The notes under the pieces are model-generated. The model did no database searches. It was given only the letters and a program-made list of their open reading frames with translations, and was not told the DNA's origin. From the NCBI GenBank assembly GCA_964626205.1, contig CAZVED010000001.1, forward strand, positions 961 to 64,960: a stretch of DNA of 64,000 nucleotides. Direction: 5' to 3'. The translations under genes were made by a program, and so were the position numbers. Of the stretch, positions 5,207 to 28,315 are shown in pieces. Source of the DNA: an uncultured Gammaproteobacteria bacterium. Lineage in GTDB: Bacteria; Patescibacteriota; Patescibacteriia; SG8-24. The number at the start of each line of letters is the position of its first letter. Position 1 is the first letter of the stretch.

Positions 5207-5851
5207 ATGCAAGAAGCCCAATACGTCGGCATGCTCCTGCTCGGATGGAAGCGCATCCTCGCTTTCGCTATCGTTTCCGCGCTCGTTGGCGGCGCGTTGA
5301 GCTTCCTGTTCCCGCTGCAGTACAGCTCCACGACACGTCTGCTCATCATTCAGCGCCAACTTTCGGGAGCGGATCCGTATACCGCCATCAAGGCGTCGGA
5401 GCGCATTTCGGACAACCTTTCCCAGGCCATCTATACGACCTCGTTCTTCGACAAGGTTCTTGAGACGGACTTCGACATCGACCGCACGGTATTCAAGGCT
5501 GACGAGCATAAGCGCCGCAAGCAGTGGGCGCAGATGATCGGTACGCAGGTCATGCGCGGGTCCGGCATGATCGTGCTCACCGTGTATCATGTCGACAAGG
5601 AGCAGGCCACGCAGATTGCGCGCGCCGTTGCGTATGTGCTCACGACCGAGGGGTGGCAGTATGTCGGCGGGGGAGACCTCGAGGTAAAGATCGTCGATCA
5701 GCCACTCCAGTCCCGCTTCCCGGTGAAGCCGAACATTCCGGCGAACGTGCTCATGGGCTTCGCACTCGGTCTCATTGCCGGTTCCGGGTATGTGCTTATG
5801 ACGAGTCAAAAGAAGGGGTTGTTCGGCATTCCGACACGCGAGACCTTTTAA
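5207..5851 (+). CDS. Wzz/chain-length-determinant-like membrane protein
   Basis: N-terminal LLGWKRILAFAIVSALVGGALSFLF TM with a Wzz-type start; second TM near the C-terminus (GFALGLIAGSGYVLM); soluble domain between. Confidence 0.45.
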   Translation: MQEAQYVGMLLLGWKRILAFAIVSALVGGALSFLFPLQYSSTTRLLIIQRQLSGADPYTAIKASERISDNLSQAIYTTSFFDKVLETDFDIDRTVFKADEHKRRKQWAQMIGTQVMRGSGMIVLTVYHVDKEQATQIARAVAYVLTTEGWQYVGGGDLEVKIVDQPLQSRFPVKPNIPANVLMGFALGLIAGSGYVLMTSQKKGLFGIPTRETF

Positions 5852-5880
5852 GCTCAGTCGAGCTCAAATAAGGAAGAAAT

Positions 5881-5908
5881 AAGCTCAGCCACATCGGCTG
5901 AGCTTATT
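5881..5908 (+). terminator. rho-independent terminator
   Basis: AAGCTCAGCC-acatc-GGCTGAGCTTATTCT hairpin after the stop at 5851. Confidence 0.5.
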
Positions 5909-5922
5909 CTGTACCAGCTTTT

Positions 5923-6020
5923 TGTCATTGCGAGTGGGACTGTACTCAGTCCCCGAAGCAATCTTTATTCATGAGGGGAGGGATTGCTTCGGGGTCGAGT
6001 ACGACCCACTCGCAATGACA
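5923..6020. repeat. family-B palindromic element (two inverted arms GTCATTGCGAG..CCGAAGCAATC around a 17-bp core)
   Basis: TGTCATTGCGAGTGGG...CCCCGAAGCAATC / GGATTGCTTCGGGG...CCCACTCGCAATGACA; same arm sequence at 18662, 19031, 19162, 21097 and 21286. Confidence 0.7.
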
Positions 6021-6032
6021 AGTTGAGTGGGT

Positions 6033-6090
6033 TAAGCTCAGAAGCTTGTCCGGCAGTATTGACAAAACCGTGTGTTCATGCTATAGTCGC
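6033..6090 (+). promoter_or_regulatory. sigma-70-type promoter module (TTGACA-17-TATAGT) with conserved upstream box TAAGCTCAGAAGCTTGTCCGGCAGT
   Basis: TTGACA at 6059-6064, 17-nt spacer, TATAGT at 6082-6087; the whole roughly 55-bp module is duplicated at 7656-7713. Confidence 0.5.
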
Positions 6091-6287
6091 AAGTTCATTG
6101 AAGCACGGAAACCGTCTGGTGAACCGCGATGTCGCCTCCTCCTAGTCGTCGCGGACTCATCAGCCGGTTTCCGGTGCTGCAAGGCATCGGTGGTGTTTTC
6201 ATCGGTTCGAGGATAGTCCTCGGCCGACCATGATGTGATTTGCCCGGACGGGCTTTGTTTGCCCGATGAGGGCGGAGGGTACTGAAC

Positions 6288-7520: not shown

Positions 7521-7553
7521 GGCAGCCTCTTCGTGAGGCTGCCGTTTGATTTT
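7521..7553 (+). terminator. rho-independent terminator
   Basis: GGCAGCCTC-ttcg-tGAGGCTGCC followed by GTTTGATTTT. Confidence 0.6.
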
Positions 7554-7633
7554 AAGCTGGATGCGGGTACCAAAATAAGGCGAAAACGAGGAATAAGCGG
7601 GAGGAAATAGGCTGGATGCGGGTACCAGCTTAA
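7552..7633 (-). repeat. family-A REP/BIME-like element (copy 1, reverse orientation)
   Basis: TTAAGCTGGATGCGGGTACC ... GGAAATAGGCTGGATGCGGGTACCAGCTTAA; reverse complement of the copies at 16551, 26753 and 28189. Confidence 0.8.
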
Positions 7634-7655
7634 ATATCTAAGCGAGCTTATCTTT

Positions 7656-7713
7656 TAAGCTCAAAAGTCTGTCTGGCAGTCTTGACAAACACCACGATTT
7701 ATGCTATAGTCAT
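7656..7713 (+). promoter_or_regulatory. sigma-70-type promoter module (TTGACA-17-TATAGT) with conserved upstream box, paralogue of 6033-6090
   Basis: TAAGCTCAAAAGTCTGTCTGGCAGTCTTGACA at 7656-7688, 17-nt spacer, TATAGT at 7705-7710. Confidence 0.5.
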
Positions 7714-7850
7714 CCGTTCAGTGAGAGGCCCTTGTCGGGAGTCTCGCAGAACACGAAGTGTGGTCTTTCCAAGTGAATCTCACGATGTCGGCCACGGTGG
7801 TCGATGTCTCAGGTTTTGATGCCTTCGGGCTTTTGCAACGGGAGATAGCA

Positions 7851-9023
7851 ATGAACAAGCACTGGGTGATTCTGGGTTTCTTGGTTCTCGGTCTCTCCGC
7901 CTGTGTCGAAGACACGGGTGGTAAGGACGGCATGAACGGCATCGACGGCATGAACGGCGACGCCGGCCCGCAAGGCGAGCCTGGCGAAGACGGCACGAAC
8001 GGCCGCGACGGCACCGACGGTGAAGACGGTCAGAACGGCACGGACGGTACCAACGGTACCGACGGTGTCGATGGTCAGGACGGGCGTGACGGCGAAGACG
8101 GCACGGATGGTACCGACGGTACCGACGGTCGCGACGGCACGGACGGTCAGGACGGCCGCGACGGAACGACGACCATCGTCATCTGTGGTGATCACGAATG
8201 TGACACGCAGAACGGCGAGAACGTCAGCAACTGCGCCATCGACTGCGCTTCGACTCCGGCTCCGTTCTGCGGCGACAACAGCTGCAACAACGGTGAGACG
8301 CACGCGACCTGCTCTGCAGATTGCGATGCGCCTCCGGTCGACCCTCAGGCACCCTACTGCGGCGACGCGTCGTGTAACAACGGCGAGACGCCCAGCAGCT
8401 GCCCGGACGACTGCGGCACCTGCGGTGATGGAAGCTGCAACAACGGCGAAGATCACCTCCTGTGCCCGGACGACTGCGAAGCGCCCGTGGTGACCGAGAC
8501 GTACGCTGGCCCGTTCAAGATGTATCGTGAGCGCCTGACGGACGGTTCGTACCTCTGCTCGATCGGGGTCAACCCGAACTACGCGAGCGGCGCAGCCAAC
8601 AACCAGATCGTCGGAGAAGGCGCAAGCTTCCTCTCGAACTGGGAGTCGGGCTCATCGAGCCAGATCCTGGCCTACCAGAACGGCGGCATCGAGTCGGACG
8701 GATACGTTCGCTTCGAGCTTCCGCGCGATAGCCAGCCAATCGGCACGTCCACGATTCGCTTCTCGTACCGTGGCTGGAATCCCCAGTCGCACAAGTACGA
8801 GTACGCGCAGTACGGCGACGCGGACACGCAGCTCGCGCGCATGACGGACGAGAGCCTCTCGATGGTGTACTGCTTCCAGTACGACCCGTCGAAGTCCTCG
8901 TACGGCTGCTCGGGTCGCATGACCTACGAGGTGTTCGCCAACCCGAACACCAACAAGAAGGACTGTCGGCTGACCGCAGCCGGTAACGCCCAAGTTGCCA
9001 ACGACCTCGTCGTCAGCAACTGA
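7851..9023 (+). CDS. collagen-like triple-helix-repeat lipoprotein with three Cys-rich repeats and a C-terminal globular domain
   Basis: lipobox LVLGLSAC; about 29 uninterrupted G-X-Y triplets (GKDGMNGIDGMNGDAGPQGEPGEDG...GRDG); three repeats CGD(N/A/G)SCNNGE(T/D)H..C..DC; start placed at ATG 7851, preferred over the ORF-track start 7758. Confidence 0.7.
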   Translation: MNKHWVILGFLVLGLSACVEDTGGKDGMNGIDGMNGDAGPQGEPGEDGTNGRDGTDGEDGQNGTDGTNGTDGVDGQDGRDGEDGTDGTDGTDGRDGTDGQDGRDGTTTIVICGDHECDTQNGENVSNCAIDCASTPAPFCGDNSCNNGETHATCSADCDAPPVDPQAPYCGDASCNNGETPSSCPDDCGTCGDGSCNNGEDHLLCPDDCEAPVVTETYAGPFKMYRERLTDGSYLCSIGVNPNYASGAANNQIVGEGASFLSNWESGSSSQILAYQNGGIESDGYVRFELPRDSQPIGTSTIRFSYRGWNPQSHKYEYAQYGDADTQLARMTDESLSMVYCFQYDPSKSSYGCSGRMTYEVFANPNTNKKDCRLTAAGNAQVANDLVVSN

Positions 9024-13585: not shown

Positions 13586-13687
13586 ACAGTCGATGTTTTT
13601 CGCTTATTTCAGCGATGAAACGGTATCTAGGGAACATCGGACTATAGCATAAAAACCACCCTTTGTCAAGGGTGGCGGGGAAACGAT

Positions 13688-13762
13688 TTAAGCTGGACAC
13701 GGGTACCGAAATAGGGCGGAAATGAAGAATGGGCGGGAGGAAATAGGCTGGATGCGGGTACA
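13688..13762 (+). repeat. family-A REP/BIME-like element (copy 2, left flank of RAYT)
   Basis: TTAAGCTGGACACGGGTACC-gaaatagggcggaaatgaagaatgggcgggaggaaata-GGCTGGATGCGGGTAC. Confidence 0.8.
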
Positions 13763-13815: not shown

Positions 13816-14370
13816 ATGGCAAGAAAGCTTCGACAATTACATACGGGAGGGGTGTATCATGTCATTTATCGTGGCAATAACCGCGCGGCGATTTTTGCTG
13901 ATGCGGAAGATTCGGAATATTTTCTTGCGTTATTACGTCGGCTAAAGCGAAGAGATGGTATGCGCGTGTTTCACTATGTGGTCATGACGAATCATGTGCA
14001 TATGGTGGTGATGCCAGAAGCGACGAAAGAATTGTCGCGAATCATGCAGGGATTGGCGCGGGCATACACGGCGTACTACAAACGCAAGTACGGTTTTGTC
14101 GGACAGCTATGGCAGGGGAGATACTTTAGCGCGCTCATCGACACCGATGCGTATCTGTTGACGTGCGGCATCTATATCGAGCTCAATCCGGTCCGTGCGG
14201 GAATGGTCGATGATCCGATGCAGTATCCATGGTCCAGCGCGCATGCGTACGCAACTGAGAAGACAGACGCGATTGTTGACGAGAGTCCGTTGTATGCAGG
14301 ATTAGGCATGACGTATGAAGCGCGGCGGAAGTCATATCGACATTTGTTGAATATGTGGATGAAAAAATAA
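13816..14370 (+). CDS. REP-associated tyrosine transposase (RAYT, IS200/IS605-like Y1 HuH transposase)
   Basis: HuH motif NHVHMVV and catalytic-Tyr motif YIELNPVRAGMV (compare E. coli YafM HMHCIW / YIYINPVKHGWV); 184 aa; flanked by REP copies. Confidence 0.85.
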   Translation: MARKLRQLHTGGVYHVIYRGNNRAAIFADAEDSEYFLALLRRLKRRDGMRVFHYVVMTNHVHMVVMPEATKELSRIMQGLARAYTAYYKRKYGFVGQLWQGRYFSALIDTDAYLLTCGIYIELNPVRAGMVDDPMQYPWSSAHAYATEKTDAIVDESPLYAGLGMTYEARRKSYRHLLNMWMKK

Positions 14371-14452
14371 ATAGGCTGGATGCGGGTACCAGCCTATTTC
14401 CTCCCGCCTATTCTTCATTTCCGCCCTATTTCGGTACCCGTGTCCAGCTTAA
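14371..14452 (-). repeat. family-A REP/BIME-like element (copy 3, right flank of RAYT)
   Basis: GGCTGGATGCGGGTACCAGCC-tatttcctcccgcctattcttcatttccgccctatttc-GGTACCCGTGTCCAGCTTAA; contains the stop codon of the convergent gene 14449..16521. Confidence 0.8.
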
Positions 14453-16521
14453 TTTGGAACCACCACCGACCGAGCGTCATCGTAGTCGAACGGAAGCCGT
14501 GTCGTGACGTCACCGATATGGTGCGTAACTCGGGTTCCCGTCGCGACGTCCGTGCCGGTCACAGAGATGCCGGTAAGCAGCGCGGGGAGGGTGCCGATGT
14601 CGGTGTCGGTCGGGGTGAACGCCAGCTCGAAGCTTGCGCCAGGAGAACTTGCGCGTTCCTGCGTGAACGCGGAAACCGCAGGGATCTTCCAGGTCACGCG
14701 TCGCGTAGACGGGAAGTAGTCGAGCGCCTCGCCTTGCGTGACGCTGAACCGTCCGGTCCACTCCGTACCCGGTGCAAGGAACGCTTCCACGACCGCGTCC
14801 TCGATGACATGTTGCGCGTTGTCGAGTTGGAGGACGATGCGATAGCGCGTCGTTTCGTTAACGGTCGGTGGCAGCGGACCGCGGCCAATCTGGTCGCCGC
14901 TGCGCGTGTAGTAGATGCCCGCGGCTTGCAGGCGGAGCTCTGTCGCGACCGGCACATCGACGGTCGGAGTGTCGATGACGACTTGTTCGCCTCCAGCGGC
15001 TTCTTCGTGTACGGCGGTAAGCAGCGCGGAGAATGCCGCAGATGCTGTTTCTGTGCCGAGCGCGTCCATGACAGACGGCGTAATTTCGCGACGCACGGTG
15101 AGTGTTGTCGTGACTGAGATGGTGTCACCGGGTGCGATGCTGGCGAGCGATGGCGTGTCTTCTGCGGTCCAGGTGAGGATCGGAGTAGCATCGCCATCCA
15201 TGACAAAGAGGCTGTCGGTCACGGAAAGCTGAATAACGCCGTTCGTAAAGGTGCGATCGCCATCGTTGCGCGCGTTGAGGTGCACGGTGACAGTGTCGCC
15301 TGGGCGAAGGAATCGCGTTTCTGCGCTTCCAAGGTCCTGCGTGAGCGTGAGGCCGGAGGAGAGCGAGTTCGCATTCACGCGCGTCGTTGAGGCAGTCACG
15401 GCTGTTCGTGCAGATGCGTTGGCGACGAGGTCGGCAGCGAACGACGTGGACGATGCTTGTCCCGGTGTCGCGCGGAGATAACCGTAGACGACAATCGTCC
15501 CGCGCGCATCCGAAGCAAGGTCGCCTAAGCGCCACAAGCCGGAGCTCGTCGCACGAGGTGCGCTTCCGGTGGTCACGAAGTCCGCTGGGGGCGTGAAGCG
15601 TACTGCCGCGTCGGGGACGGCGCGGTTGGAGGTGTTGGCGTAGGAGAGCGTGACGGCGGTCGTTGCTCCGCGGAGGATGGTTTCCGGAACGGAGATGTCG
15701 ACGCCGACTGCGGAAGAACCGATGGGGAGGCGAATGTGGAACGGAGTAACGACGGGTTCTGTGCTCCCTTCAGTCCAATAGGAGATAGATGCCGGGATCT
15801 CCACGACTGAGCCGATAGGGCCGTAGGGGACGCCAGTCAGGGTTGCGCCACGCTTTGCGCCAGGCATGAGCGGCGGAAGCGGAACGGCGATGGAGGTCGC
15901 AGCGACCGCTGGAGGGACGCAGGAGCGAAGCTCGGTTTCGCTTAGTGCGCCGCCGTGCAGGGAAATGCCTGCATGCGCCATGGACGGCGGGAGATCGACG
16001 GTGAGGATAGTGCAAGGGAGTGCCACGGTAGTAGAGAAGTTCGTGTAATCGATGGTCGCGACCGAGGATTCGCCGCTCACGGATGCCACGGGAGCGTGGA
16101 CCGTGACGGTGAGCACGTTCGGGTTCGCGCTCGGCAGGAAATACGGCGAATAGACGCCGGCGACGATAAGTGCGGCGATGACGACAGCGAGCACGAGGTC
16201 GATAGCGACGAGCTTGTGTGCGTGCTTCGGGTACTTTGCCTTGTACTTCCGTTCCCAGTGCCCCTTGAGCGGCTCGTAGCAGATTTTATGGATGGGATCC
16301 GAGACGAGGACAGCATGCTTATGCGCATGTTTATGCATGCTCGCGAGCGGCGGATAGCAGACACGCTTTACCGGATCCATGAGCTCGCCTGCCTTGTCGC
16401 GCAAAAGGCTCAGTGTCTCAATGGCCGCGCTCATGCCTTTCGCCATAGGCGAAGCTGCCGCGGCGCGGAGCTTTTCCTCGTCGGTCATCACCTTCGGTTG
16501 TTTTGGAGTCTTTGCTTTCAT
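14449..16521 (-). CDS. membrane-anchored surface protein with tandem beta-sandwich (DUF11/Ig-like) repeats; Cys/His-rich cytoplasmic N-terminus
   Basis: cytoplasmic N-terminus with paired motifs RVCYPPLASMHKHAHKH / KICYEPLKGHWERKYKAKYPKHAHK; one TM (LVAIDLVLAVVIAALIVAGV); about 570-aa extracellular Thr/Val/Ser-rich repetitive beta region. Confidence 0.6.
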   Translation of the reverse strand: MKAKTPKQPKVMTDEEKLRAAAASPMAKGMSAAIETLSLLRDKAGELMDPVKRVCYPPLASMHKHAHKHAVLVSDPIHKICYEPLKGHWERKYKAKYPKHAHKLVAIDLVLAVVIAALIVAGVYSPYFLPSANPNVLTVTVHAPVASVSGESSVATIDYTNFSTTVALPCTILTVDLPPSMAHAGISLHGGALSETELRSCVPPAVAATSIAVPLPPLMPGAKRGATLTGVPYGPIGSVVEIPASISYWTEGSTEPVVTPFHIRLPIGSSAVGVDISVPETILRGATTAVTLSYANTSNRAVPDAAVRFTPPADFVTTGSAPRATSSGLWRLGDLASDARGTIVVYGYLRATPGQASSTSFAADLVANASARTAVTASTTRVNANSLSSGLTLTQDLGSAETRFLRPGDTVTVHLNARNDGDRTFTNGVIQLSVTDSLFVMDGDATPILTWTAEDTPSLASIAPGDTISVTTTLTVRREITPSVMDALGTETASAAFSALLTAVHEEAAGGEQVVIDTPTVDVPVATELRLQAAGIYYTRSGDQIGRGPLPPTVNETTRYRIVLQLDNAQHVIEDAVVEAFLAPGTEWTGRFSVTQGEALDYFPSTRRVTWKIPAVSAFTQERASSPGASFELAFTPTDTDIGTLPALLTGISVTGTDVATGTRVTHHIGDVTTRLPFDYDDARSVVVPN

Positions 16522-16550
16522 ATATATGCCGATAGTGTAGCAGAGTGCAT

Positions 16551-16632
16551 TTAAGCTGGTACCCGCATCCAGCCTATTTCCTCCCGCCTATTCTTCATTT
16601 CCGCCTTATTCCGGTACCCGTGTCCAGCTTAA
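16551..16632 (+). repeat. family-A REP/BIME-like element (copy 4)
   Basis: TTAAGCTGGTACCCGCATCCAGCC-tatttcctcccgcctattcttcatttccgccttattcc-GGTACCCGTGTCCAGCTTAA between two minus-strand genes. Confidence 0.8.
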
Positions 16633-16636
16633 ACCG

Positions 16637-18670
16637 TCACTGCCCAACGGACGAGAGCGTGAAGACGTCCGTGGTAAGCGTCACGACTTCGTCTTTTCCG
16701 TCGCCGTCGATGTCTGCCGAGGAGACGCGCACGCCAGTCCGACTTCGTGCGTCTCCGGCAAAGAAGCCGAGGCTGAGTGCGCGTCCGTACTTGTCGAAGA
16801 CGCGCACGTGCGGACCGCCGCCCGGCCCAGCTCCCGTGACGATTTCGTCTTTACCATCGCCGTCCAGGTCGCCGGCTGCCACATGGACGCCGCCGCGGAA
16901 GGCCGGGTCGTAGGCGAAGAAACCAGGATTGAGGAGCCGCCCGTTCTTGTCGAAGATGCGCACGTGCGGACCGCCGCCAACACCAGCACCGGCAATAATC
17001 TCGTGCGCGCCATTGCCGTCGATATCGCCCAGGGCGATGTTGACGCCGCCACGGAAGCGGGGGTCGTAGGCGAAGAAGCCGGGGTTGATGAGCACGCCAT
17101 CCATATTAAAGACGCGGATCTGCGGGCCGGCACCAGAGCCGGTACCGGTGACGATTTCCATCTTACCGTCGCCCTCAAGATCGCCGACCGCGAAGTTGAT
17201 GCCGAGGCGATAGTTTTCGCCGTACGGCTTGAAGGACGTCTTGAGCCGGCCGTCTGCCCAGTAGATGCGAATCTCCGAGTTCGTCGCAACGACCTTCTCG
17301 AGTGTCCCGGAGACGCCGTCGATATCCGTCACGACCACGTTCGTACCACCGTCAAACGGACCTTCATAGGCAAAGAAGCCGTTTCGGACTTGTGCGCCAG
17401 CCCCGGAATAGACGCGCGCAAAGGCGCCGTTCACGAACGTTCCGCCGACAATGCGCTCTACCGGGCGGGTGAGGACGATGCCGTCGAGGCCGGAGAGCGT
17501 CACCGAGGTGACGATGCTGCCGTCGTTGACGCGCGGGTCTTGTGTGCCGCTGAGCTTTTCCATTTCGATGCCGAGGTCGACGGTTTGCGCACGGTCCGTG
17601 GAGTTCACAAGAACGGTCCCGTTCGTGAAGTCGCGTCGGTACACGCCGCGCTGGAGGTTCCGAGCGTTGGGGGAGAGGAGGTTCACCGGGCCCGAGAGCG
17701 GACGTCCGAGATGGACGCTGTACTCATCGTAGTGCCAGAGCTGGCCGTGGTTCTGGTCGCCGAAGTCGTAGCTGAAGAAGCCTTGGCCGAGGAGTGCGGT
17801 CGTGAGCGTGTAGCGGACATTCGCGTAGTCGGCGTTATTGCCGGAGTTGGACGTATTGCCGTTCACGACGAAGACCGGCGTGTAGCCCACACGATCGTGG
17901 AGGTCGAGGTAGTTTTGCGTGACACCCTCCCACGTACCGCCCGCTTCCCACGGGGTAGGGTAGGTTTCGAACATGCGTCCGTTCACGTGTGGCTGGAGCT
18001 CGCCGGTGGAATCGCCGTTCGTCACGATGACGGCGCTCGCACCCAAAAGGTCGCGGGTGTTCTTGAGCAGGTTCACGGTCGCGCGCTTCCATGCCGTGTC
18101 CGCGAGGTGCGCGTCCGTCCGTGCGCCGGAGCGGTGGATGTCGATGTTGCCGCCGTTCACCCAAGAGATGTTCGCGGAGAGCTCATCGTAGAAGACACCG
18201 TCCCAGAGTCCGGTCGCCATGATCTCGTCTTTCACGAACTGCGGGAGGACGGTCTGCCAGCTCCCGACGGTGTTGATGACCGTCGTTCCCGGCCAGACGG
18301 AGACTGCGCGACCGGACGGGTCGCGGAGCCACATGTCGTCGGTGATGTGCGTGCGGAGTTTCTGGTGGAGCGGATCGACCCAGATGCTGTTCCATGACTT
18401 CGATGGGACGTAGGCGAGGATGAGGACGTTCGGATTCAGGCGGCGGAGTTCGTCGAACATCGCACGGTTGTACACCTGCGCTTCAGCCGGGAAGATGAGG
18501 AGGTCGTAGCGCGCGAGCTGCGGGTAGAGCGCCGGGGTGATGTCCGTTCCAGCACGGAGATAGTAGTTCGCCGTCCGCACGAACTTGTCGTCCGGCGTTT
18601 TGATGGCGGCATCTGCCGACTGTGCGCCGAAGAGCCCCATCGCGATGAGGGGGGCCATGAGCAGTGTCAT
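16637..18670 (-). CDS. secreted glycoside-hydrolase-like (TIM-barrel GHL-type) protein with C-terminal FG-GAP/beta-propeller repeats
   Basis: signal peptide MTLLMAPLIAMGLFGAQSADA; N-terminal roughly 400-aa domain resembling glycoside-hydrolase-like families; four C-terminal repeats FRGGV..A.GD.DGDG..EIVTGAG.GGGPHVR.F; the ORF-track start 18730 lies inside a family-B repeat, so start set at M21 (alternative 18658). Confidence 0.6.
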   Translation of the reverse strand: MTLLMAPLIAMGLFGAQSADAAIKTPDDKFVRTANYYLRAGTDITPALYPQLARYDLLIFPAEAQVYNRAMFDELRRLNPNVLILAYVPSKSWNSIWVDPLHQKLRTHITDDMWLRDPSGRAVSVWPGTTVINTVGSWQTVLPQFVKDEIMATGLWDGVFYDELSANISWVNGGNIDIHRSGARTDAHLADTAWKRATVNLLKNTRDLLGASAVIVTNGDSTGELQPHVNGRMFETYPTPWEAGGTWEGVTQNYLDLHDRVGYTPVFVVNGNTSNSGNNADYANVRYTLTTALLGQGFFSYDFGDQNHGQLWHYDEYSVHLGRPLSGPVNLLSPNARNLQRGVYRRDFTNGTVLVNSTDRAQTVDLGIEMEKLSGTQDPRVNDGSIVTSVTLSGLDGIVLTRPVERIVGGTFVNGAFARVYSGAGAQVRNGFFAYEGPFDGGTNVVVTDIDGVSGTLEKVVATNSEIRIYWADGRLKTSFKPYGENYRLGINFAVGDLEGDGKMEIVTGTGSGAGPQIRVFNMDGVLINPGFFAYDPRFRGGVNIALGDIDGNGAHEIIAGAGVGGGPHVRIFDKNGRLLNPGFFAYDPAFRGGVHVAAGDLDGDGKDEIVTGAGPGGGPHVRVFDKYGRALSLGFFAGDARSRTGVRVSSADIDGDGKDEVVTLTTDVFTLSSVGQ

Positions 18671-18716
18671 TGCGAGGGTCGACGTACTCGTCGGCCCGAA
18701 GCAATCCCGTTGTGGC
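18662..18716 (+). repeat. family-B palindromic arm (single arm)
   Basis: GTCATTGCGAGGGTCGACGTACTCGTCGGCCCGAAGCAATCCCGTTGTGG overlapping the 5' end of gene 16637..18670. Confidence 0.65.
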
Positions 18717-18726
18717 ATGGTGCGCG

Positions 18727-19020
18727 TCATACAGCTTCCTTTTCACGCTCTCGCTCCAACGCCTTCGGGTTGGGGGAGTAGAGTCGGTTCTTGATCTTCC
18801 ACTGGCTCACGAACTGACCGATACCATCCTTGGCGACCTTGGTGCGGACCTTGGGGCGTTCTTGTGACCAGCGCACGAGGCTCTCGAAATTGATCTTGTA
18901 CCGACCGCGCACGACGACGTACGTCAAAGCGCCGTCCGCGATGGCGCGGCGGACGGTCTTGGTGGAAACACCGAAGAGCCTCGATGCTTCAGAGACGGAG
19001 ACACGGATGAGTGAGGACAT
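18727..19020 (-). CDS. small helix-turn-helix DNA-binding protein (excisionase/MerR-like)
   Basis: 97 aa; N-terminal VSEASRLFGVSTKTVRRAIADGAL HTH; flanked by family-B arms at 18662 and 19031. Confidence 0.5.
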   Translation of the reverse strand: MSSLIRVSVSEASRLFGVSTKTVRRAIADGALTYVVVRGRYKINFESLVRWSQERPKVRTKVAKDGIGQFVSQWKIKNRLYSPNPKALEREREKEAV

Positions 19021-19030
19021 GTGAGAGGTG

Positions 19031-19200
19031 TGTCATTGCGAGGCCTGAAAGGCCGAAGCAACCCCGTTGAATCAGGAGAAGTATATCACGTTAAACTGAA
19101 TGCTTCATACCACGAAGATCCTTATTTGTCAAGAATAGTGTAGACAAATATCTTGAAATTGGACGGGATTGCTTCGGGCCTAAAGGCCCTCGCAATGACA
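19031..19200. repeat. family-B composite element: two inverted arms flanking a 95-bp AT-rich core
   Basis: TGTCATTGCGAGGCCTGAAAGGCCGAAGCAACCCC (19031-19065) ... GGGATTGCTTCGGGCCTAAAGGCCCTCGCAATGACA (19163-19198); core much lower in GC than its surroundings. Confidence 0.7.
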
Positions 19201-21096: not shown

Positions 21097-21191
21097 TGTC
21101 ATTGCGAGCGGGCCGTACCCGGCCCCGAAGCAATCCCGAACATGAACGGGATTGCCGCGGGCCGACGAGTACGTCGACCCTCGCAATGACA
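21097..21191. repeat. family-B palindromic element (two inverted arms, 9-bp core)
   Basis: TGTCATTGCGAGCGGGCCGTACCCGGCCCCGAAGCAATCCCG-aacatgaac-GGGATTGCCGCGGGCC...CCCTCGCAATGACA, immediately after the stop at 21096. Confidence 0.7.
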
Positions 21192-21285: not shown

Positions 21286-21323
21286 TGTCATTGCGAGGCC
21301 CGAAGGGCCGAAGCAATCCCGTC
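21286..21323 (+). repeat. family-B palindromic arm (single arm)
   Basis: TGTCATTGCGAGGCCCGAAGGGCCGAAGCAATCCCGTC. Confidence 0.6.
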
Positions 21324-21531: not shown

Positions 21532-24500
21532 ATGACAGACGTAATGAAAATGAGCCGGAAGGCCTTTTCGATCGGTGTCGTCGCTCTGACGGTTGCCTGG
21601 TCGATCGGTCTCTCCGCCCTCCTCGCTCCGCTCGCTTCGAGCGCTGCAGTGTCGGGTTCGCTCATCAAGGCTTCCATGCCGGCCGTGTACTACATGGGCT
21701 CGGATGGCAAGCGCTATGTGTTCCCGAACGAAAAGACCTACTTCTCTTGGTACGCGGATTTCTCCGCTGTCCAGGTCATCACGGATTCGGAGCTCGCCTC
21801 CCTTCCGATCGGTGGCAACGTCACGTACCGCCCGGGTGTTCGCATGGTGAAGATCCAGACTGATCCGAAGGTGTACGCAGTTGACTCTCATGGTGTCCTT
21901 CGCTGGATCACCTCTGAGGCGGCAGCTGTCGCTCTCTACGGTTCCGCTTGGAACACCATGGTTCACGATGTCTCGGATGCGTTCTTCACCAACTACACGG
22001 TTGGCGCAGACGTCTCCGGTCCGTCGGACTTCAACCCGGGTGCCGCAACGGCAGCCGCAACATCCATCAACCAGGACAAGAACCTCTCAACGGGTTCTGC
22101 CGCTGGCCTCAGCGTCTCCAAGGCGTCTGACTCCCCGATGGGTGCCACCCTTCCGCTCGGCGCGATGGGTGTCAACTTCGTCAAGTTCAACGTCATGAAC
22201 GGCGGTTCTTCCGCTGCTATGCTCTCCTCGCTCACGGTCATGCGTTCCGGCCCTGGCTATGCCAGCGACTTCGACGCGGTGTACGTGTACCGCGGCTCCG
22301 AGCGTTTGACGACCGGCCGCTCGATCAACTCCTCGTCCAACGAGGCGACGTTCAGCGGTTTGAACCTCTCGATCCCGGCGGGCGGCTCCGTCTCCCTCTG
22401 GATCGCGGGTGACATCTCCACGTCCGCTTTCGCAGGCAACGTGAACGCGCTCTCCGTGAGCAGCGTCATGGTTGGCAGCAGCTCCGTGTCCGGCACGCCG
22501 GTCATGGGCTCTTCCTTCAGCCTCGCAGGTGCAACGGTCGGTGAAATTGACATCGAGCGCACTGGCGGCTCCACCCTTGCCAACATCAAGGCAGGTGGTC
22601 TCGCGCAGCGCGTCGCATCGTTCCGTCTCACGGCCGGCAATCAGGAGGACCTCGATGTCCACTCTGTCGCGCTCACCTTCGGTGGTAACCTGAACCGTGC
22701 TCACCTCTCCAACTTCGTGCTCAAGCAGAGTGGCTCCACGCTCGCGTCGATCCCGTCCATCTCGGACAAGGACCTCGTGACGTTCGCCTTCTCGAGCCCG
22801 ATGTTCATGGAGAAGGGCGCTCAGCGCACCTTCGATGTGTTCGCGGATGTGAACGCAGGCGCTCGCTCCGGCGATGAGGTTGCGTTCTATGTCGATGTCA
22901 ACGCGGATGTCCGCGCCATGGGCCGCACCTACGGCTTCGGTGTGATGACGACCATTGACGCCACGTTCGACGCGTCCACCGATCAGGTGGCAACGGTCGA
23001 AGCAGGCAAGCTCACCACCACCTTCAATGGCCCGGCCTCCAAGGACGTGCTCGCGAACGGCAAGGATGTCGAGCTCTTCAACTTCACGGTCGCGGCTCAG
23101 GCCAACCTGGAGTTCCGCGAGGTCACGCTCGCACTTGACACCAACGGTGGCGACCCTCTCAACACCGTAGTCAGCGACATCAAGATCGTTGACACGGCCA
23201 ATGGTGCTATCGTTGCTGGTCCGACGGATGGCGGCGCAAGCTGCGTCCTCACGGCCAACACGGGTACGTGCGCCTTCTCGGAGACTTGGAACCTCGCGAG
23301 CGGCCAGTCGCGCACCTTCAAGGTGACGGCTGACATCAACTCCGCTGCGAATGGTGATGAAATTCGCGTGACGCTCGGCTCCGGCCAGTTGTTCGCGAAC
23401 AGCAAGGTCCGCAACTTGGACAACAACACCTACCTCGGCGCGTCCGACATGGTTCCGTCCACGGTGCTTGGAGGTAACATCCACACGGTGACCGACTCCG
23501 GTCTCACGGTTGGTAACGCCTCGACACCGGTTGCTCAGACCTACATCAAGGGCTCCTCGGACATCGCGCTCGCAGGCTGGTCCTTCACGGCAGCTGACGC
23601 TGCCCCGGTTCGCTTGAACTCGATCACGGTAGACTGTACCGCTGACGATGACAGCACGGTGAACGAGAAGGACGAGCTGTGCAACAGCGTTGTGCAGACA
23701 GTGAGGCTCATGAACGGTGCGACCCAGGTCGGCGTCACTGCCAGCCCGGATTCGTCCGACAGCATCCGCTTCGACAACCTCAATCTCACCATCAATGGTG
23801 GACAGAGCATGACGCTTGTGCTCATGGGCACGCTCTCCAGCTCTGCTCCGACCACGACCTACCTCGGGTTCGAGATTGAAGATGTTGATGTCACTGATGC
23901 TGACGGTGGTACGGTAAGCGACTCTGGCGTTCCTACGGCCATGAGCGCACTTATGACCGTCGCCGCGCAGGGCTCCGTCACGCTCGTCAACGCCCCAGTT
24001 GATATTGAGTCTGAGCCGAGCCTCGTTATCGGTGGCTCGTCGAACGTCGTGCTCGGTAAGTACCGCATGACCGCTCAGGACGAAGAGCTTCGCCTGTCGA
24101 AGGTGCAGTTCAGCGTCGCTACCCCGGCTGGTATTTCAACGGTGTCGCTCCACGATGGCGCAACGCTCGTTGGCGGTCCGGTCAGTGTGGTTGGCGGCCT
24201 CGCCACCTTCTCTTCGGTGAACTTCGTTGTTCCGAAGGACACGTCCAAGACCCTCACGGTCAAGGCGAACCTCAACACCGTCTCGCCGACCACTTCCGGT
24301 CCGCAGCCGATGGACCCGGTGACCATCACGATGCTTGATGCCAACCTCGAGATCCGCGGAACGTCCGCTGGTTCGGGCACGACCATCGTCTCCGCTGGTA
24401 CGGGCGACCCACTGGCCGGCAACCTCGCGGCCTACGGTAAGTTCATCGTGAAGTCCAAGCCGACGGTTGAAGTCGTGAGCGGTGACAAGGTGCTGGTCAA

Positions 24501-24945
24501 CAGCGCTGCCGCGAACGTCCTCACCCTTACGGTCTCGGCCGACACGGCTGGTCCGGTGGCGTTCCAGACCCTCGAGTTCACGGTGAACGACGACACGAAC
24601 CTCGGTGTCCTCGCCTGCTCGGGCACTGAGTCCAGCGTCTTCACGGCCAGCAACAACCAGGTTGTTGTCGGTAACTGTGACCTCACTGGCTCGTCTCTCA
24701 CCATCGACTTCACCGACGAACAGGTGGTCAACGCAGGAACCGCGAAGTCCTACTACCTCATGCTCAACATCTCGGGCACGGCAGATGGCGACTCGGTCAG
24801 CGTTGTTCTCGAGAGCACTGGCTTCGGCTGGTCTGATTACTCGGCTGTCGGTCACGACACGACGGGTATGACGGGTGCTGACTGGTTCACGGATGGTGAC
24901 TACGTCAAGTACCTTCCGTCCACGGCTCGCACGCTCTCCCGCTAA
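21532..24945 (+). CDS. large secreted surface protein: conserved ~110-aa N-terminal domain (YYxGxDGKRYxFPN...DPKVYAV...LRWI) plus tandem Ig-like beta-sandwich repeats
   Basis: signal peptide; N-terminal domain shared with 25412, 26892 and 28316 genes; more than 900 aa of Thr/Ser/Gly/Val-rich repeats; good RBS (AAAAGGAAAATAAGATATG). Confidence 0.65.
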   Translation: MTDVMKMSRKAFSIGVVALTVAWSIGLSALLAPLASSAAVSGSLIKASMPAVYYMGSDGKRYVFPNEKTYFSWYADFSAVQVITDSELASLPIGGNVTYRPGVRMVKIQTDPKVYAVDSHGVLRWITSEAAAVALYGSAWNTMVHDVSDAFFTNYTVGADVSGPSDFNPGAATAAATSINQDKNLSTGSAAGLSVSKASDSPMGATLPLGAMGVNFVKFNVMNGGSSAAMLSSLTVMRSGPGYASDFDAVYVYRGSERLTTGRSINSSSNEATFSGLNLSIPAGGSVSLWIAGDISTSAFAGNVNALSVSSVMVGSSSVSGTPVMGSSFSLAGATVGEIDIERTGGSTLANIKAGGLAQRVASFRLTAGNQEDLDVHSVALTFGGNLNRAHLSNFVLKQSGSTLASIPSISDKDLVTFAFSSPMFMEKGAQRTFDVFADVNAGARSGDEVAFYVDVNADVRAMGRTYGFGVMTTIDATFDASTDQVATVEAGKLTTTFNGPASKDVLANGKDVELFNFTVAAQANLEFREVTLALDTNGGDPLNTVVSDIKIVDTANGAIVAGPTDGGASCVLTANTGTCAFSETWNLASGQSRTFKVTADINSAANGDEIRVTLGSGQLFANSKVRNLDNNTYLGASDMVPSTVLGGNIHTVTDSGLTVGNASTPVAQTYIKGSSDIALAGWSFTAADAAPVRLNSITVDCTADDDSTVNEKDELCNSVVQTVRLMNGATQVGVTASPDSSDSIRFDNLNLTINGGQSMTLVLMGTLSSSAPTTTYLGFEIEDVDVTDADGGTVSDSGVPTAMSALMTVAAQGSVTLVNAPVDIESEPSLVIGGSSNVVLGKYRMTAQDEELRLSKVQFSVATPAGISTVSLHDGATLVGGPVSVVGGLATFSSVNFVVPKDTSKTLTVKANLNTVSPTTSGPQPMDPVTITMLDANLEIRGTSAGSGTTIVSAGTGDPLAGNLAAYGKFIVKSKPTVEVVSGDKVLVNSAAANVLTLTVSADTAGPVAFQTLEFTVNDDTNLGVLACSGTESSVFTASNNQVVVGNCDLTGSSLTIDFTDEQVVNAGTAKSYYLMLNISGTADGDSVSVVLESTGFGWSDYSAVGHDTTGMTGADWFTDGDYVKYLPSTARTLSR

Positions 24946-26730: not shown

Positions 26731-26752
26731 GGGAGCGACACACCAGGCGGGT

Positions 26753-26832
26753 TTAAGCTGGTACCCGTGTCCAGCCTATTTCCTCCCGCTTATTTCTCGT
26801 TTCCGCCTTATTTCGGTACCCGCATCCAGCTT
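26753..26832 (+). repeat. family-A REP/BIME-like element (copy 5)
   Basis: TTAAGCTGGTACCCGTGTCCAGCC-tatttcctcccgcttatttctcgtttccgccttatttc-GGTACCCGCATCCAGCTTT. Confidence 0.8.
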
Positions 26833-26891
26833 TAGTGGTTGCCATACTGAGCGTTTTTCGGCATGCTGGAGGTCATATAACCCCACGTCGT

Positions 26892-28136: not shown

Positions 28137-28188
28137 GCGAGCAATCACGCACGCGAATCAAAACATCGAATCTTCAGGCGTTTTCGTT

Positions 28189-28270
28189 TTAAGCTGGTAC
28201 CCGTGTCCAGCCTATTTCCTCCCGCCCATTTCTCGCTTCCGCCTTATTTCGGTACCCGCATCCAGCTTAA
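28189..28270 (+). repeat. family-A REP/BIME-like element (copy 6)
   Basis: TTAAGCTGGTACCCGTGTCCAGCC-tatttcctcccgcccatttctcgcttccgccttatttc-GGTACCCGCATCCAGCTTAA. Confidence 0.8.
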
Positions 28271-28315
28271 AACCGTGGTATACTGCATGAACGATTCAGT
28301 GTTTTTGTCGTACCC

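What the first reader, a model, noticed from the sequence alone, without database searches (positions are those of the whole stretch)
5923..6020. Second palindromic repeat family (GTCATTGCGAGG...CCGAAGCAATCCC arms), seven arms across five loci
A 35-50-bp arm is itself a small hairpin (ATTGC...GCAAT with an inner GCC/GGC-type stem). It occurs as inverted pairs at 5923-6020, 19031-19200 and 21097-21191, and as single arms at 18662-18716 and 21286-21323. It is unrelated in sequence to the family-A REPs and has no cognate transposase in the window. The arms are translated in several ORF-track ORFs (for example the peptides SLRGSTYSSARSNP and QRDCFGP). That includes the annotated 5' end of gene 16637..18730, so automated start-codon calls are likely misled here.
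Basis: seen in the sequence. Interest (0 to 1): 0.55.

Follow-up and report, generated by a model that had tools for sequence, protein, structure and literature searches.

The report
Hairpin repeats targeted by Ssn nucleases
These are eight copies of a small directional DNA hairpin repeat, a previously uncatalogued "dialect" of the repeats that the recently described Ssn family of single-strand-DNA nucleases bind and cut; one copy probably sits in frame inside a gene rather than marking a wrong start codon.

Summary
The repeat is real. There are eight arms, not seven, at five loci between 5.9 and 21.3 kb. Each has the form YGTC-ATTGC-GA-[variable GC-rich stem-loop]-GAA-GCAAT-C.

It is not in Rfam, lacks a terminator T-tract, and is not conserved coding sequence. 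The same 11+10-nt frame occurs in more than 15 bacterial phyla and in viral contigs, mostly as outward-facing "+-" doublets.

In a reverse test, all 80 metagenomic loci encoding one small (~95 aa) GIY-YIG protein had an arm within 250 bp, 60 of them on both sides. That protein is 44% identical to Neisseria SsnA, the ssDNA-specific nuclease that binds NTS/"SRM" hairpins (CGTCATTCCC...GGGAATCYRG) and cuts just upstream (Chenal et al. 2025).

The arms share the GTCAT...ATC frame with NTS. The published SRM search pattern nevertheless matches 0 of 519 of them.

Syntenic relatives of this Patescibacteria locus carry no arms, or carry canonical SRMs in the same gaps, so the arms are gained and lost.

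No ssn gene lies in the window.

The arm at 18665-18709 is exactly 45 nt (15 codons). It most likely lies in frame in a signal peptide, so the annotated start is probably correct.

Verdict: a new member of a known kind, of moderate interest.

The parts
5923..5966 (+). Arm a1, the left half of doublet 1: TGTCATTGCGAG-TGGGACTGTACTCAGTCCC-CGAAGCAATC
   Evidence: Exact 11-mer. Hairpin -18.1 kcal/mol as RNA, z -4.0.
5979..6020 (-). Arm a2, the right half of doublet 1, with the GTC end facing outward. The spacer to a1 is 18 nt.
   Evidence: The whole doublet can also form a ~42-bp DNA hairpin of -41.3 kcal/mol, z -12.3.
18665..18709 (+). Arm a3, a single 45-nt unit (15 codons). It lies antisense inside the first 22 codons of ORF 16637..18730 and encodes (R)DCFGPTSTSTLAM.
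   Evidence: No arm is present at the HTH/GHL15 junction of the syntenic locus L321.
16637..18730 (-). Secreted GHL15/FG-GAP glycoside-hydrolase-like gene whose signal peptide carries arm a3. The annotated start at 18730 is probably genuine.
   Evidence: Pfam. Homologues of 64% identity or less lack the arm peptide. ATGA overlap with the HTH_17 stop and an AAGGAAG motif upstream. Synteny.
19031..19066 (+). Arm a4 (AACC variant of the 3' half). It lies 12 nt upstream of the HTH_17 start codon at 19020, antisense to that gene, in its 5' leader.
   Evidence: L322 has an arm of the same family at the same place and in the same orientation.
19126..19147 (.). Native palindromic operator/promoter element TTGTCAAGAATAGTGTAGACAA, lying between a4 and a5. 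It is not part of the repeat.
   Evidence: Conserved upstream of the HTH_17 gene in L321 (TTGTCTACAATAGTGTTGACAA) and L323 (TTGTCTACAATAATGTAGACAA), neither of which has ATTGCGAG-type arms. Promoter-like match at 19126-19154.
19164..19200 (-). Arm a5, on the far side of the native promoter from a4.
21097..21138 (+). Arm a6, the left half of doublet 3. It starts at the base after the TAG stop (21094-21096) of the DUF5667 anti-sigma-like gene.
21147..21191 (-). Arm a7, the right half of doublet 3. Its 3' half reads CGCGGCAATC. Its inner stem is identical to that of a3. The spacer to a6 is 14 nt.
21286..21321 (+). Arm a8, a single arm upstream of the 1137-aa ORF 21532..24945. It is 88% identical to a4 over 49 nt, including 8-9 nt of upstream flank.
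   Evidence: and D17.

Best explanation
The arms are a divergent dialect of the Ssn-related motifs (SRM, also called NTS-like repeats). These are short directional hairpin repeats that serve as binding and cleavage sites for Ssn-family nucleases, which are ~95-aa single-domain GIY-YIG enzymes of family cd10448.

The proposed mechanism rests on homology with Neisseria SsnA/NTS. When the strand that reads GTCATTGCGAG...CGAAGCAATC becomes single-stranded, for example during replication, DNA uptake, conjugation or repair, it folds into the hairpin. Ssn then binds the hairpin. The C just 3' of the palindrome and the GTC just 5' of it are the key determinants. [quoted passage not shown]

In '+-' doublets each strand carries one cleavable arm, with the cut sites at the two outer edges. 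This is the same geometry as the autonomous arm-ssn-arm cassette. The doublets and single arms in the window are therefore non-autonomous copies, comparable to REPINs or MITEs, with the nuclease encoded elsewhere or lost.

Shown here: the sequence frame, the hairpin with a varying inner stem, the near-obligate flanking of ssn genes, homology of those genes to Neisseria SsnA, and gain and loss at orthologous sites, including in-frame insertions.

Inferred: ssDNA cleavage of this dialect, its biological role (restriction of incoming ssDNA, or spread of the repeat), and the presence of a partner nuclease in this genome.
For: 1. Frame shared with NTS. NTS is CGTC-ATTCCCGCG..CGCGGGAAT-C-YRG. The arms are YGTC-ATTGC..GCAAT-C-CCG, or -CAG across the wider family. 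The positions invariant in all 8 arms include GTC and the C after the palindrome. These are exactly the positions that SsnA mutagenesis found critical for cleavage and binding.

2. Reverse test. Loci chosen only by similarity to a GIY-YIG protein carried an arm within 250 bp in 80 of 80 cases and on both sides in 60 of 80. About 0.04 per locus is expected by chance. Typical layouts are '+' arm - gene - '-' arm, or a full doublet on each side. Independent examples are L181 and L240.

3. Protein identity. That protein is PF01541. It aligns without gaps at 44% identity over 89 aa (E 2e-26) to the 94-aa N. gonorrhoeae ORF that carries Y6, Y17 and E64, the residues mutated in the paper. That ORF sits among 9 canonical NTS copies in 2.2 kb.

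4. Syntenic relatives of the window locus. L321 has no arms. L323 has at least 6 canonical SRMs in the same three intergenic gaps. L322 has both an ATTGCGAG arm and a near-perfect NTS.

5. Distribution. Doublets are overwhelmingly '+-' with a 22-24-nt CAG...CTG spacer.

6. Presence/absence polymorphisms at orthologous sites.

7. The commonest core is GCGNAGC. From my own knowledge this is Hirao's exceptionally stable DNA mini-hairpin, which fits a DNA-level rather than an RNA-level structure.
Against: - No ssn homologue lies in the 64-kb window, and the rest of the genome could not be read. The arms here may therefore be orphans.
- The published degenerate SRM search sequence matches 0 of 8 window arms and 0 of 519 family arms.
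- The palindrome sequence differs from NTS, and the paper shows that recognition depends on sequence as well as structure. Cleavage of this dialect by its own Ssn is therefore untested.
- The window arms end in CCG rather than YRG.
- No Patescibacteria Ssn appeared among the top 120 homologues, although few of those carry names.
- In the 240 loci picked by the arm pattern, only 2 have an ssn gene between arms. Most copies are far from any nuclease gene.
Confidence: 0.8

Rival explanations
1. Orphan relics. The arms are SRM-type repeats, but this Patescibacteria genome no longer encodes, or never encoded, a cognate Ssn. The copies would be decaying leftovers, or were acquired by recombination with foreign DNA. 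Any present effect would be incidental, such as spurious ORFs, altered leaders, or a peptide insert.
For: - No ssn gene in the window.
- All 8 arms are confined to 15 kb of the 64 kb.
- Some 3' halves are degraded: AACC in a4, CGCGGCAATC in a7, CTT tail in a1.
- In the published survey 81% of genomes with more than 200 SRMs have an ssn gene, so about 19% do not.
Against: - All eight 5' halves are still exact 11-mers, and every inner stem is still perfectly paired. That argues for recent spread or ongoing constraint.
- Only 64 kb of a contig of at least 143 kb was visible.
Confidence: 0.25
2. RNA-level elements. The hairpins would act mainly in transcripts, as terminators, mRNA stabilisers or regulatory leaders, much as is proposed for some REPs.
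For: - Doublets sit directly after stop codons: a6 starts 1 nt after a TAG, and doublet 1 follows the Wzz-like gene.
- a4 lies in the 5' leader of the HTH_17 gene.
- The RNA folds are stable.
Against: - None of the arms has a T-tract, and none is called terminator-like. Doublet 1 follows a separate terminator-like hairpin at 5877-5909, called on the minus strand.
- There is no Rfam match even at lax thresholds.
- Arms occur in both orientations relative to flanking genes, in the window and in phage contigs.
- The directional non-palindromic GTC and C conservation, and the obligate link to a DNA nuclease gene, are unexplained by an RNA role.
- SsnA does not bind RNA.
Confidence: 0.07
3. A classical REP/BIME or REPIN system, mobilised by a Y1 (RAYT, IS200/IS605-like) transposase.
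For: - The elements are short extragenic palindromes.
- They occur as inverted doublets made of two arm types, a short CGNAG core and a long GAGCGAAGCGA core, which recalls BIME Y/Z pairs.
Against: - The gene enclosed by arms is GIY-YIG in 80 of 80 loci.
- No recurrent transposase family lies next to the arms in 120 viral loci.
- The conserved 5' element is GTC, not the GTAG of REPs.
- The one transposase seen between doublets is an IS256-family enzyme in a single locus.
Confidence: 0.03
4. Conserved protein-coding sequence, or a chance palindrome.
For: - The arm is translated in the annotated 697-aa protein.
- It is translated in frame in phage genes.
Against: - The peptide is absent from the 13 close homologues inspected.
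- Seven of the eight arms are intergenic.
- The 11-mer is strongly over-represented: 0 of 100 shuffles reach the observed count.
- The same DNA is read in different frames and on different strands at different sites.
Confidence: 0.01

Closest known systems
NTS / Ssn-related motifs (SRM) with SsnA (GIY-YIG cd10448) of Neisseria and other bacteria (Chenal et al., Nat Commun 2025, PMC11893778)
   Same: - A 20-50-nt directional hairpin repeat present in many copies, mostly intergenic and clustered.
- The frame YGTCAT...ATC-Y.G, with GTC 5' and C 3' of the palindrome.
- The repeat flanks the gene of a ~95-aa single-domain GIY-YIG nuclease (SRM-ssn-SRM). The nuclease linked to this dialect is 44% identical to Neisseria SsnA and keeps the Y/Y/E catalytic residues at the same spacing.
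- Canonical SRMs occupy the same intergenic gaps in syntenic relatives.
   Different: - The palindrome is ATTGC/GCAAT, not ATTCCCGCG/CGCGGGAAT.
- There is a conserved GA/GAA internal loop and a modular, freely varying inner hairpin of 5-26 nt.
- The published degenerate search sequence matches none of 519 copies.
- '+-' doublets with a CAG...CTG spacer dominate.
- The host here is a Patescibacteria (CPR) genome, a group not mentioned in the paper's main text.
- No nuclease gene is visible in the window.
- Cleavage has not been tested.
REP/BIME and REPIN elements with RAYT (Y1) transposases (Nunvar 2010; Bertels & Rainey 2011, PMC3116915; Ton-Hoang 2012)
   Same: - Short extragenic palindromes that fold as ssDNA hairpins.
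- Inverted doublets act as the apparent unit.
- A single-copy enzyme gene is flanked by the repeats.
- The same analogy is drawn by the Ssn authors.
   Different: - The enzyme is a GIY-YIG nuclease, not an HUH/Y1 transposase.
- The 5' signature is GTC, not GTAG.
- REPs are lineage-specific, whereas this 11+10-nt frame is identical across more than 15 phyla and in viral contigs.
Rickettsia palindromic elements (RPE; Ogata et al. 2000; cited from my own knowledge)
   Same: - Palindromic repeats that can sit in frame inside protein-coding genes and add a peptide segment. This is seen here for a3 in a signal peptide and for a full doublet in a phage gene.
- Rickettsia is listed among the SRM-rich genera.
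   Different: - RPEs are 100-150 bp long and restricted to Rickettsia.
- No sequence comparison with RPEs was made here.
d(GCGAAGC)/d(GCGNAGC) extraordinarily stable DNA mini-hairpins (Hirao et al.; cited from my own knowledge)
   Same: The commonest core of the family is exactly GCGNAGC: 30 CGAAG, 12 CGCAG, 10 CGTAG and 8 CGGAG among 189 arms.
   Different: - The window copies replace this core with longer GC-rich stems of 5-9 bp.
- The standard DNA nearest-neighbour fold does not capture the mini-hairpin's stability.

Membership tests
Ssn-related motif (SRM/NTS) repeats | A 20-50-nt inverted repeat able to form a hairpin in a single strand | tested here: met
   All 8 arms fold with an outer 5-bp stem, a GA/GAA loop and an inner 5-9-bp stem, under both RNA and DNA parameters.
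Ssn-related motif (SRM/NTS) repeats | Directionality: conserved non-palindromic GTC immediately 5' of the palindrome and C immediately 3' of it | tested here: met
   GTC and the 3' C are invariant in the 8 window arms. Across 237 arms from viral contigs the flanks are G 97% at -1, Y 93% at -2 and Y 97% at +1. These are the positions critical for SsnA.
Ssn-related motif (SRM/NTS) repeats | 3' tail YRG after AATC | tested here: inconclusive
   Across the wider family the tail is mostly CAG, which fits. In the window it is CCG in 6 arms, CCT in one and TTT in one.
Ssn-related motif (SRM/NTS) repeats | Match to the published degenerate search sequence HGTCWYN(0-2)YYVSBRHN(0-5)WNVSBRGN(0-2)RNCYNB | tested here: not met
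   The pattern matches 0 of 8 window arms and 0 of 519 family arms. The same regular expression does match canonical NTS, 9 NTS copies around the gonococcal ssnA, and SRMs in L322 and L323. This feature is an operational search pattern, not a biological definition.
Ssn-related motif (SRM/NTS) repeats | Repeats flank the gene of an Ssn nuclease (SRM-ssn-SRM architecture) | tested here: met
   Met for the repeat family: 80 of 80 protein-selected loci have an arm within 250 bp, and 60 of 80 have one on both sides. L181 and L240 are further examples. No such cassette is present in the window.
Ssn-related motif (SRM/NTS) repeats | The flanked protein belongs to the Ssn family (single-domain ~94-aa GIY-YIG, cd10448, homologous to Nm SsnA) | tested here: met
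   The protein is PF01541 only and 96 aa long. It is 44% identical without gaps to the 94-aa gonococcal SsnA (Y6/Y17/E64), with E 2e-26. The cd10448 assignment itself could not be run.
Ssn-related motif (SRM/NTS) repeats | A cognate ssn gene in the same genome | not testable with these tools
   None is found in the 64-kb window by profile search of six-frame translations. The rest of the source contig (at least 143 kb) and genome could not be retrieved.
Ssn-related motif (SRM/NTS) repeats | Bound and cut by Ssn as ssDNA only, on one strand only, a few nucleotides upstream | not testable with these tools
   This needs a biochemical assay.
REP/BIME-RAYT (REPIN) systems | Association with a Y1 (RAYT) transposase gene flanked by the repeats | tested here: not met
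   The enclosed gene is GIY-YIG in 80 of 80 loci. No recurrent transposase lies next to arms. No dedicated Y1 profile search was run.
REP/BIME-RAYT (REPIN) systems | Conserved GTAG tetranucleotide 5' of the hairpin | tested here: not met
   The conserved 5' element is YGTC.
Intrinsic (rho-independent) terminators | A GC-rich hairpin followed by a T-tract | tested here: not met
   No arm is reported by the terminator scan. The sequence after the arms is CCCG.../CAG....
Any curated RNA family (Rfam 15) | Covariance-model match | tested here: not met
   There are 0 matches at gathering thresholds in the whole window. Lax E-value mode gives only generic hairpin (miRNA-precursor) noise.

The most novel reading that the evidence does not exclude
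Ssn together with its hairpins may be an active transposition system based on single-stranded DNA and driven by a GIY-YIG nuclease, a mechanistic class not yet demonstrated in bacteria. The outward-facing '+-' doublet, or a single arm plus ~10-16 nt of upstream flank, would be the mobile unit. It would insert next to start and stop codons and even in frame inside genes.

The ATTGCGAG...CGAAGCAAT dialect would then be one of the most widely distributed mobile DNA sequences in bacteria and phages, CPR symbionts included. It would also be a large hidden source of spurious 'hypothetical proteins' in metagenomes.
Probability: 0.3. Interest if true: 0.7.

Novelty: new member of a known kind. Interest (0 to 1): 0.4.

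Why it matters
- It assigns an unexplained repeat in a candidate-phyla-radiation (CPR) genome to the Ssn/SRM system described in 2025.
- It shows that the published SRM search pattern misses an entire, very widespread dialect. That dialect occurs in more than 15 phyla and many viral contigs, often as doublets.
- For annotation, these arms generate many short false ORFs. They can be read as peptides such as SLR..RSNP, DCF..LAMT and CHCERSEAI. They can also sit in frame in real genes, so gene callers and start-codon heuristics need to recognise them.
- For biology, the gain/loss polymorphisms, and the use of the same intergenic gaps by different dialects in related genomes, support the idea that these repeats are mobile. 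The Ssn authors raised this idea but did not test it.
- For technology, each dialect implies a new ssDNA-nuclease specificity.

Tried and rejected
- **Literature search by sequence or peptide.** Searches for GTCATTGCGAG, its complement, HCERSEAI, LRFARND and others found only unrelated primers, or nothing. A search for COG2827 was uninformative.
- **Rfam.** No matches at gathering thresholds or in lax mode.
- **Recurrent neighbouring protein.** Clustering ORFs near the arms in 120 viral loci gave only phage structural genes and translations of the repeat itself.
- **Source genome.** Exact-protein look-ups for two window proteins were not on record, and the cluster listing gave no name.
- **Target-site duplications.** There is no general signal: the mean longest shared flank word is 8.5 nt against 7.1 nt in the control. 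The apparent GGTG and AGTAG duplications around window doublets, and the 126-bp duplication in L181, are not general.
- **Hammerhead and kink-turn readings of the GA/GAA loop.** Both were considered and dropped. The core sequence does not fit a hammerhead, and the loop lacks the 3-nt bulge of a k-turn.
- **Near-matches at 43090 and 46718.** These are not arms.
- **Solved structures.** Only remote UPF0213 proteins match.
- **Ssn homologues named as Patescibacteria.** None appears among the top 120 of at least 7,985 hits, most of which are unnamed.
- **Simple perfect-pairing statistic on inner cores.** It was only weakly informative, because the long-type cores contain nested GA/GA loops.

Full report
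**Observation.**
The 11-mer GTCATTGCGAG occurs exactly eight times in the window: 5924+, 6019-, 18666+, 19032+, 19199-, 21098+, 21190- and 21287+. With one mismatch allowed there are 10 matches against 2.0 expected, and no shuffle out of 100 reaches that count. Each exact copy is followed 10-30 nt later by CGAAGCAATC or a near copy. A search allowing up to four mismatches adds only two chance-level hits. The one-mismatch sites at 43090 and 46718 have no 3' half. There are therefore eight arms at five loci, not seven.

The aligned arms share YGTC-ATTGC-GA-[inner]-(C)GAA-GCAAT-C-CCG. Every arm folds, as RNA or as DNA, into the same shape:
- a 5-bp outer stem;
- a 2x3 GA/GAA internal loop;
- a perfectly paired inner stem of 5-9 bp.

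Seven different inner-stem sequences occur among the eight arms (a3 and a7 share one). The inner helix is thus maintained while its sequence varies freely.

**Context in the window.**
The window has ~60% G+C. The closest named homologues of its proteins come from Patescibacteria/Uhrbacteria-like MAGs.

Seven arms are intergenic:
- Doublet 1 follows a Wzz-like gene and a separate terminator-like hairpin, and it precedes a strong promoter-like site.
- Arms a4 and a5 lie between a divergent HTH_17 gene and an ECF sigma-factor gene.
- Doublet 3 starts one base after the stop codon of a DUF5667 anti-sigma-like gene.
- Arm a8 lies upstream of a 1137-aa ORF.

The eighth arm, a3, lies inside the first 22 codons of the annotated GHL15/FG-GAP gene 16637..18730.

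The window has no tRNA genes and no Rfam match. None of the arms has a terminator-like T-tract.

**What the repeat is.**
The genomes span:
- Alpha- and Gammaproteobacteria, including many Bradyrhizobium and sphingomonads;
- Chloroflexota, Desulfobacterota, Bacteroidota, Cyanobacteria and Planctomycetota;
- Patescibacteria, Zixibacteria, Omnitrophota and Firmicutes;
- Campylobacterota, Myxococcota, Spirochaetes and others.

The commonest inner core is CGNAG, which gives GCGNAGC. A longer type has GAGCGAAGCGA.

Adjacent arms are predominantly '+-', with the GTC ends facing outward. They are separated by ~22-24 nt that usually begin CAG and end CTG. No protein family was consistently adjacent in the viral loci.

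Two genome loci were different. L181 (Planctomycetota) and L240 (Pseudomonadota) each have a 96-aa GIY-YIG ORF lying exactly between a '+' and a '-' arm.

I then ran the reverse test. Eighty metagenomic loci were retrieved purely by similarity to this protein.
- All 80 had an arm within 250 bp.
- 60 had arms on both sides.
- Chance expectation is ~0.04 per locus.
- The arms appear either as single '+' and '-' arms hugging the gene or as full doublets on both sides.

**Link to the literature.**
A full-text search led to Chenal et al. 2025 (PMC11893778). They describe the following.
- Ssn is a family of ~94-aa single-domain GIY-YIG nucleases (cd10448).
- These enzymes bind hairpin repeats, NTS in Neisseria (CGTCATTCCCGCGMAVGCGGGAATCYRG) and 'SRM' elsewhere, but only as single-stranded DNA and only in one orientation.
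- They cut a few nucleotides upstream of the repeat.
- The three nucleotides 5' of the palindrome (GTC) govern cleavage.
- The C just 3' of the palindrome is the most critical base for binding.
- The genes are typically arranged NTS-ssnA-NTS.
- In N. meningitidis the system restricts incoming transforming ssDNA.

The arms here share precisely that frame, GTCAT...ATC-Y.G, and the GTC and 3' C are invariant.

A tblastn search of the L181 protein against the plasmid collection hit a gonococcal chromosome that is filed there as a plasmid. The matched 94-aa ORF has Y6, Y17 and E64, the residues mutated in the paper, and sits among nine canonical NTS copies. The two proteins align without gaps at 44% identity, E 2e-26. 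The nuclease tied to this repeat is therefore a genuine Ssn homologue.

The published degenerate SRM pattern, however, matches none of the 8 window arms and none of 519 family arms. It does match the canonical NTS controls. This is thus a dialect that the published search would not have counted.

**Evidence from syntenic relatives.**
Three contigs from related organisms carry the same gene order: large protein, DUF5667, sigma factor, HTH_17, GHL15. Their GHL15 proteins are 62-64% identical to the window's.
- L321 has no arms and no SRMs in 14 kb.
- L323 has no ATTGCGAG arms. It has at least six canonical SRMs, such as TGTCATCCCGGGCCGCGACCCGGGATCCAC, in the same three intergenic gaps that hold arms in the window.
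- L322 has an ATTGCGAG arm ending 14 nt upstream of the HTH_17 start, matching a4 in place and orientation. It also has a near-perfect NTS, TGTCATTCCCGCATAAGCGGGAATCCAG.

The arms are therefore lineage-specific acquisitions, and different Ssn dialects colonise the same niches.

The 103-nt 'spacer' between a4 and a5 contains the palindromic operator/promoter TTGTCAAGAATAGTGTAGACAA. This element is conserved in L321 and L323. That pair is therefore two arms bracketing a native promoter, not a true doublet.

**Gain and loss elsewhere.**
I built an 'empty-site' query for every arm cluster and searched it against all fetched loci. This found clean presence/absence pairs among related phage-like contigs.
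- A single arm plus 16 nt of upstream sequence lies between the ribosome-binding site and the start codon of a capsid gene in L003. It is absent at that site in L036, L113 and L001.
- A full doublet is inserted in frame inside a phage protease-like gene in L008 and L097 (...ELRKFKAGDWHEPLSEASLRVERSNPAFGASESGLLRRAVGASRNDEAIGKVGVRHSK...). L065, L010 and L088 lack it (...ELRKFKSVTASDTKSVAETLAKIGARHSK...).
- No general target-site duplication was found.

**The start codon of gene 16637..18730.**
The arm-encoded peptide (PQRDCFGPTSTSTLAMT) is absent from the homologues examined, so it is not conserved coding sequence. Even so, the annotated start is probably right, for these reasons.
- The ATG at 18730 overlaps the HTH_17 stop codon (ATGA) and follows an AAGGAAG motif.
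- In one syntenic relative (L321) the two genes abut in the same way, TGAGATG. In L322 and L323 they are 108 and 245 nt apart, so this support comes from L321 alone.
- Only that start supplies a positively charged n-region (MTRTMPQR).
- Removing the ~15 arm-encoded residues restores an N-terminus of the same length as in homologues (27-28 aa against 29-31 aa before the conserved IKTP). Starting at M25 would leave 18 uncharged residues.
- The unit 18665-18709 is exactly 45 nt.

I rate an in-frame insertion at about 0.6 and a downstream true start at about 0.4.

**Mechanism and its limits.**
- *Shown:* the frame, the fold with a varying inner stem, the near-obligate flanking of ssn genes, the homology to SsnA, and gain and loss including in-frame insertions.
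- *Inferred:* that a cognate Ssn binds these arms as ssDNA and cuts 5' of the GTC; that '+-' doublets, which put a cleavable arm on each strand with cuts at the outer edges, are the non-autonomous counterpart of the arm-ssn-arm cassette; and what the system does in this host.

No ssn gene lies in the window, and the rest of the genome could not be read. The copies here may therefore be orphans.

**Verdict.**
This is a real feature and a new member, a dialect, of a recently described kind.

Interest is moderate. The main value lies in three points:
- recognising an extremely widespread, unpatterned SRM dialect;
- extending it to CPR genomes and phage contigs;
- the evidence for mobility and in-frame insertion.

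Noticed in passing
window 7551-7625, 13687-13761, 14370-14467, 16550-16647, 26752-26849, 28188-28285: A separate composite palindromic repeat of ~75-98 nt. Its ends TTAAGCTGG(TACCCGYRTCC) and the inverse GGTACCCGCATCCAGCTTAA flank a pyrimidine-rich spacer.
   Followed up: no
window 6032-6101 and 7655-7724: A 70-nt segment repeated at 74% identity that contains a near-consensus promoter (TTGACA-17-TATAGT, with TG). The first copy lies just downstream of doublet 1.
   Followed up: partly
window 7920-8185: A long run of 9-nt (3-codon) periodic repeats (GGC/GGT-x-GAC...) inside ORF 7758..9023. This looks like a collagen-like or Gly-X-Asp repeat protein.
   Followed up: no
window 21682-21996, 26360-26674, 27105-27419, 28436-28750: Four diverged copies (60-72% identity) of a ~200-300-nt segment. 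These appear to be paralogous domains in the large ORFs downstream of arm a8.
   Followed up: no
window 19126-19147; L321 ~5670-5700; L323 ~5340-5370: A palindromic operator-like element, TTGTC(A/T)A..ATAGTGT(A/T)GACAA, is conserved upstream of the HTH_17 gene in three related genomes. It is likely the autoregulatory site or promoter of that gene.
   Followed up: partly
L181 4877-5002 and 5436-5561: A 126-bp direct duplication (96% identity) of the 5' end of pheT flanks the arm-ssn-arm cassette. The duplication keeps an intact gene copy. It was not seen at other cassettes.
   Followed up: partly
L181 5023-5034; L322 269-279: Solo 5' half-arms (GTCATTGCGAG with no 3' half) lie 9-23 nt outside a complete arm in two unrelated loci. 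They may be footprints of repeated cutting or insertion.
   Followed up: no
L166 557-1837: In a Patescibacteria contig, two '+-' doublets flank an IS256/IS1249-family transposase gene. This may be an insertion sequence landing between or next to doublets.
   Followed up: partly
L046 2695-2818; L127 1372-1506; L249 1227-1481: Tandem head-to-tail arrays of three or four arms in the same orientation (33-nt start-to-start period in L046; about 50 nt in L127; about 60-80 nt in L249). This arrangement differs from the usual inverted doublet.
   Followed up: no
L003 4339-4394: An arm plus 16 nt of upstream flank is inserted between the Shine-Dalgarno sequence and the start codon of a phage capsid gene. 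This moves the ribosome-binding site ~50 nt away unless the hairpin brings it back into range.
   Followed up: partly
L015, L036, L003, L119 (viral contigs): In some phage-like contigs an arm occupies nearly every intergenic gap of the structural module. All arms share one orientation within a contig, but that orientation can be either way relative to the genes.
   Followed up: partly
upstream flanks of 237 arms (L001-L120): Positions -12 to -2 upstream of the GTC are pyrimidine-rich (C+T 60-93%). This may reflect a preference at the cleavage or insertion site, or frequent placement next to purine-rich ribosome-binding sites on the other strand.
   Followed up: no
L324 (NZ_CP119140.1) and NZ_CP119142.1: Complete N. 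gonorrhoeae chromosomes (2.17 Mb) are filed as plasmids in the plasmid collection. That error is what made the SsnA/NTS comparison possible.
   Followed up: yes
L325 (Planktothrix agardhii plasmid p1) 998-1282: An Ssn homologue 57% identical to the L181 protein has no SRM or arm within 1 kb. It sits between an MmeI-type restriction-modification gene and DISARM drmA, that is, in a defence island.
   Followed up: partly
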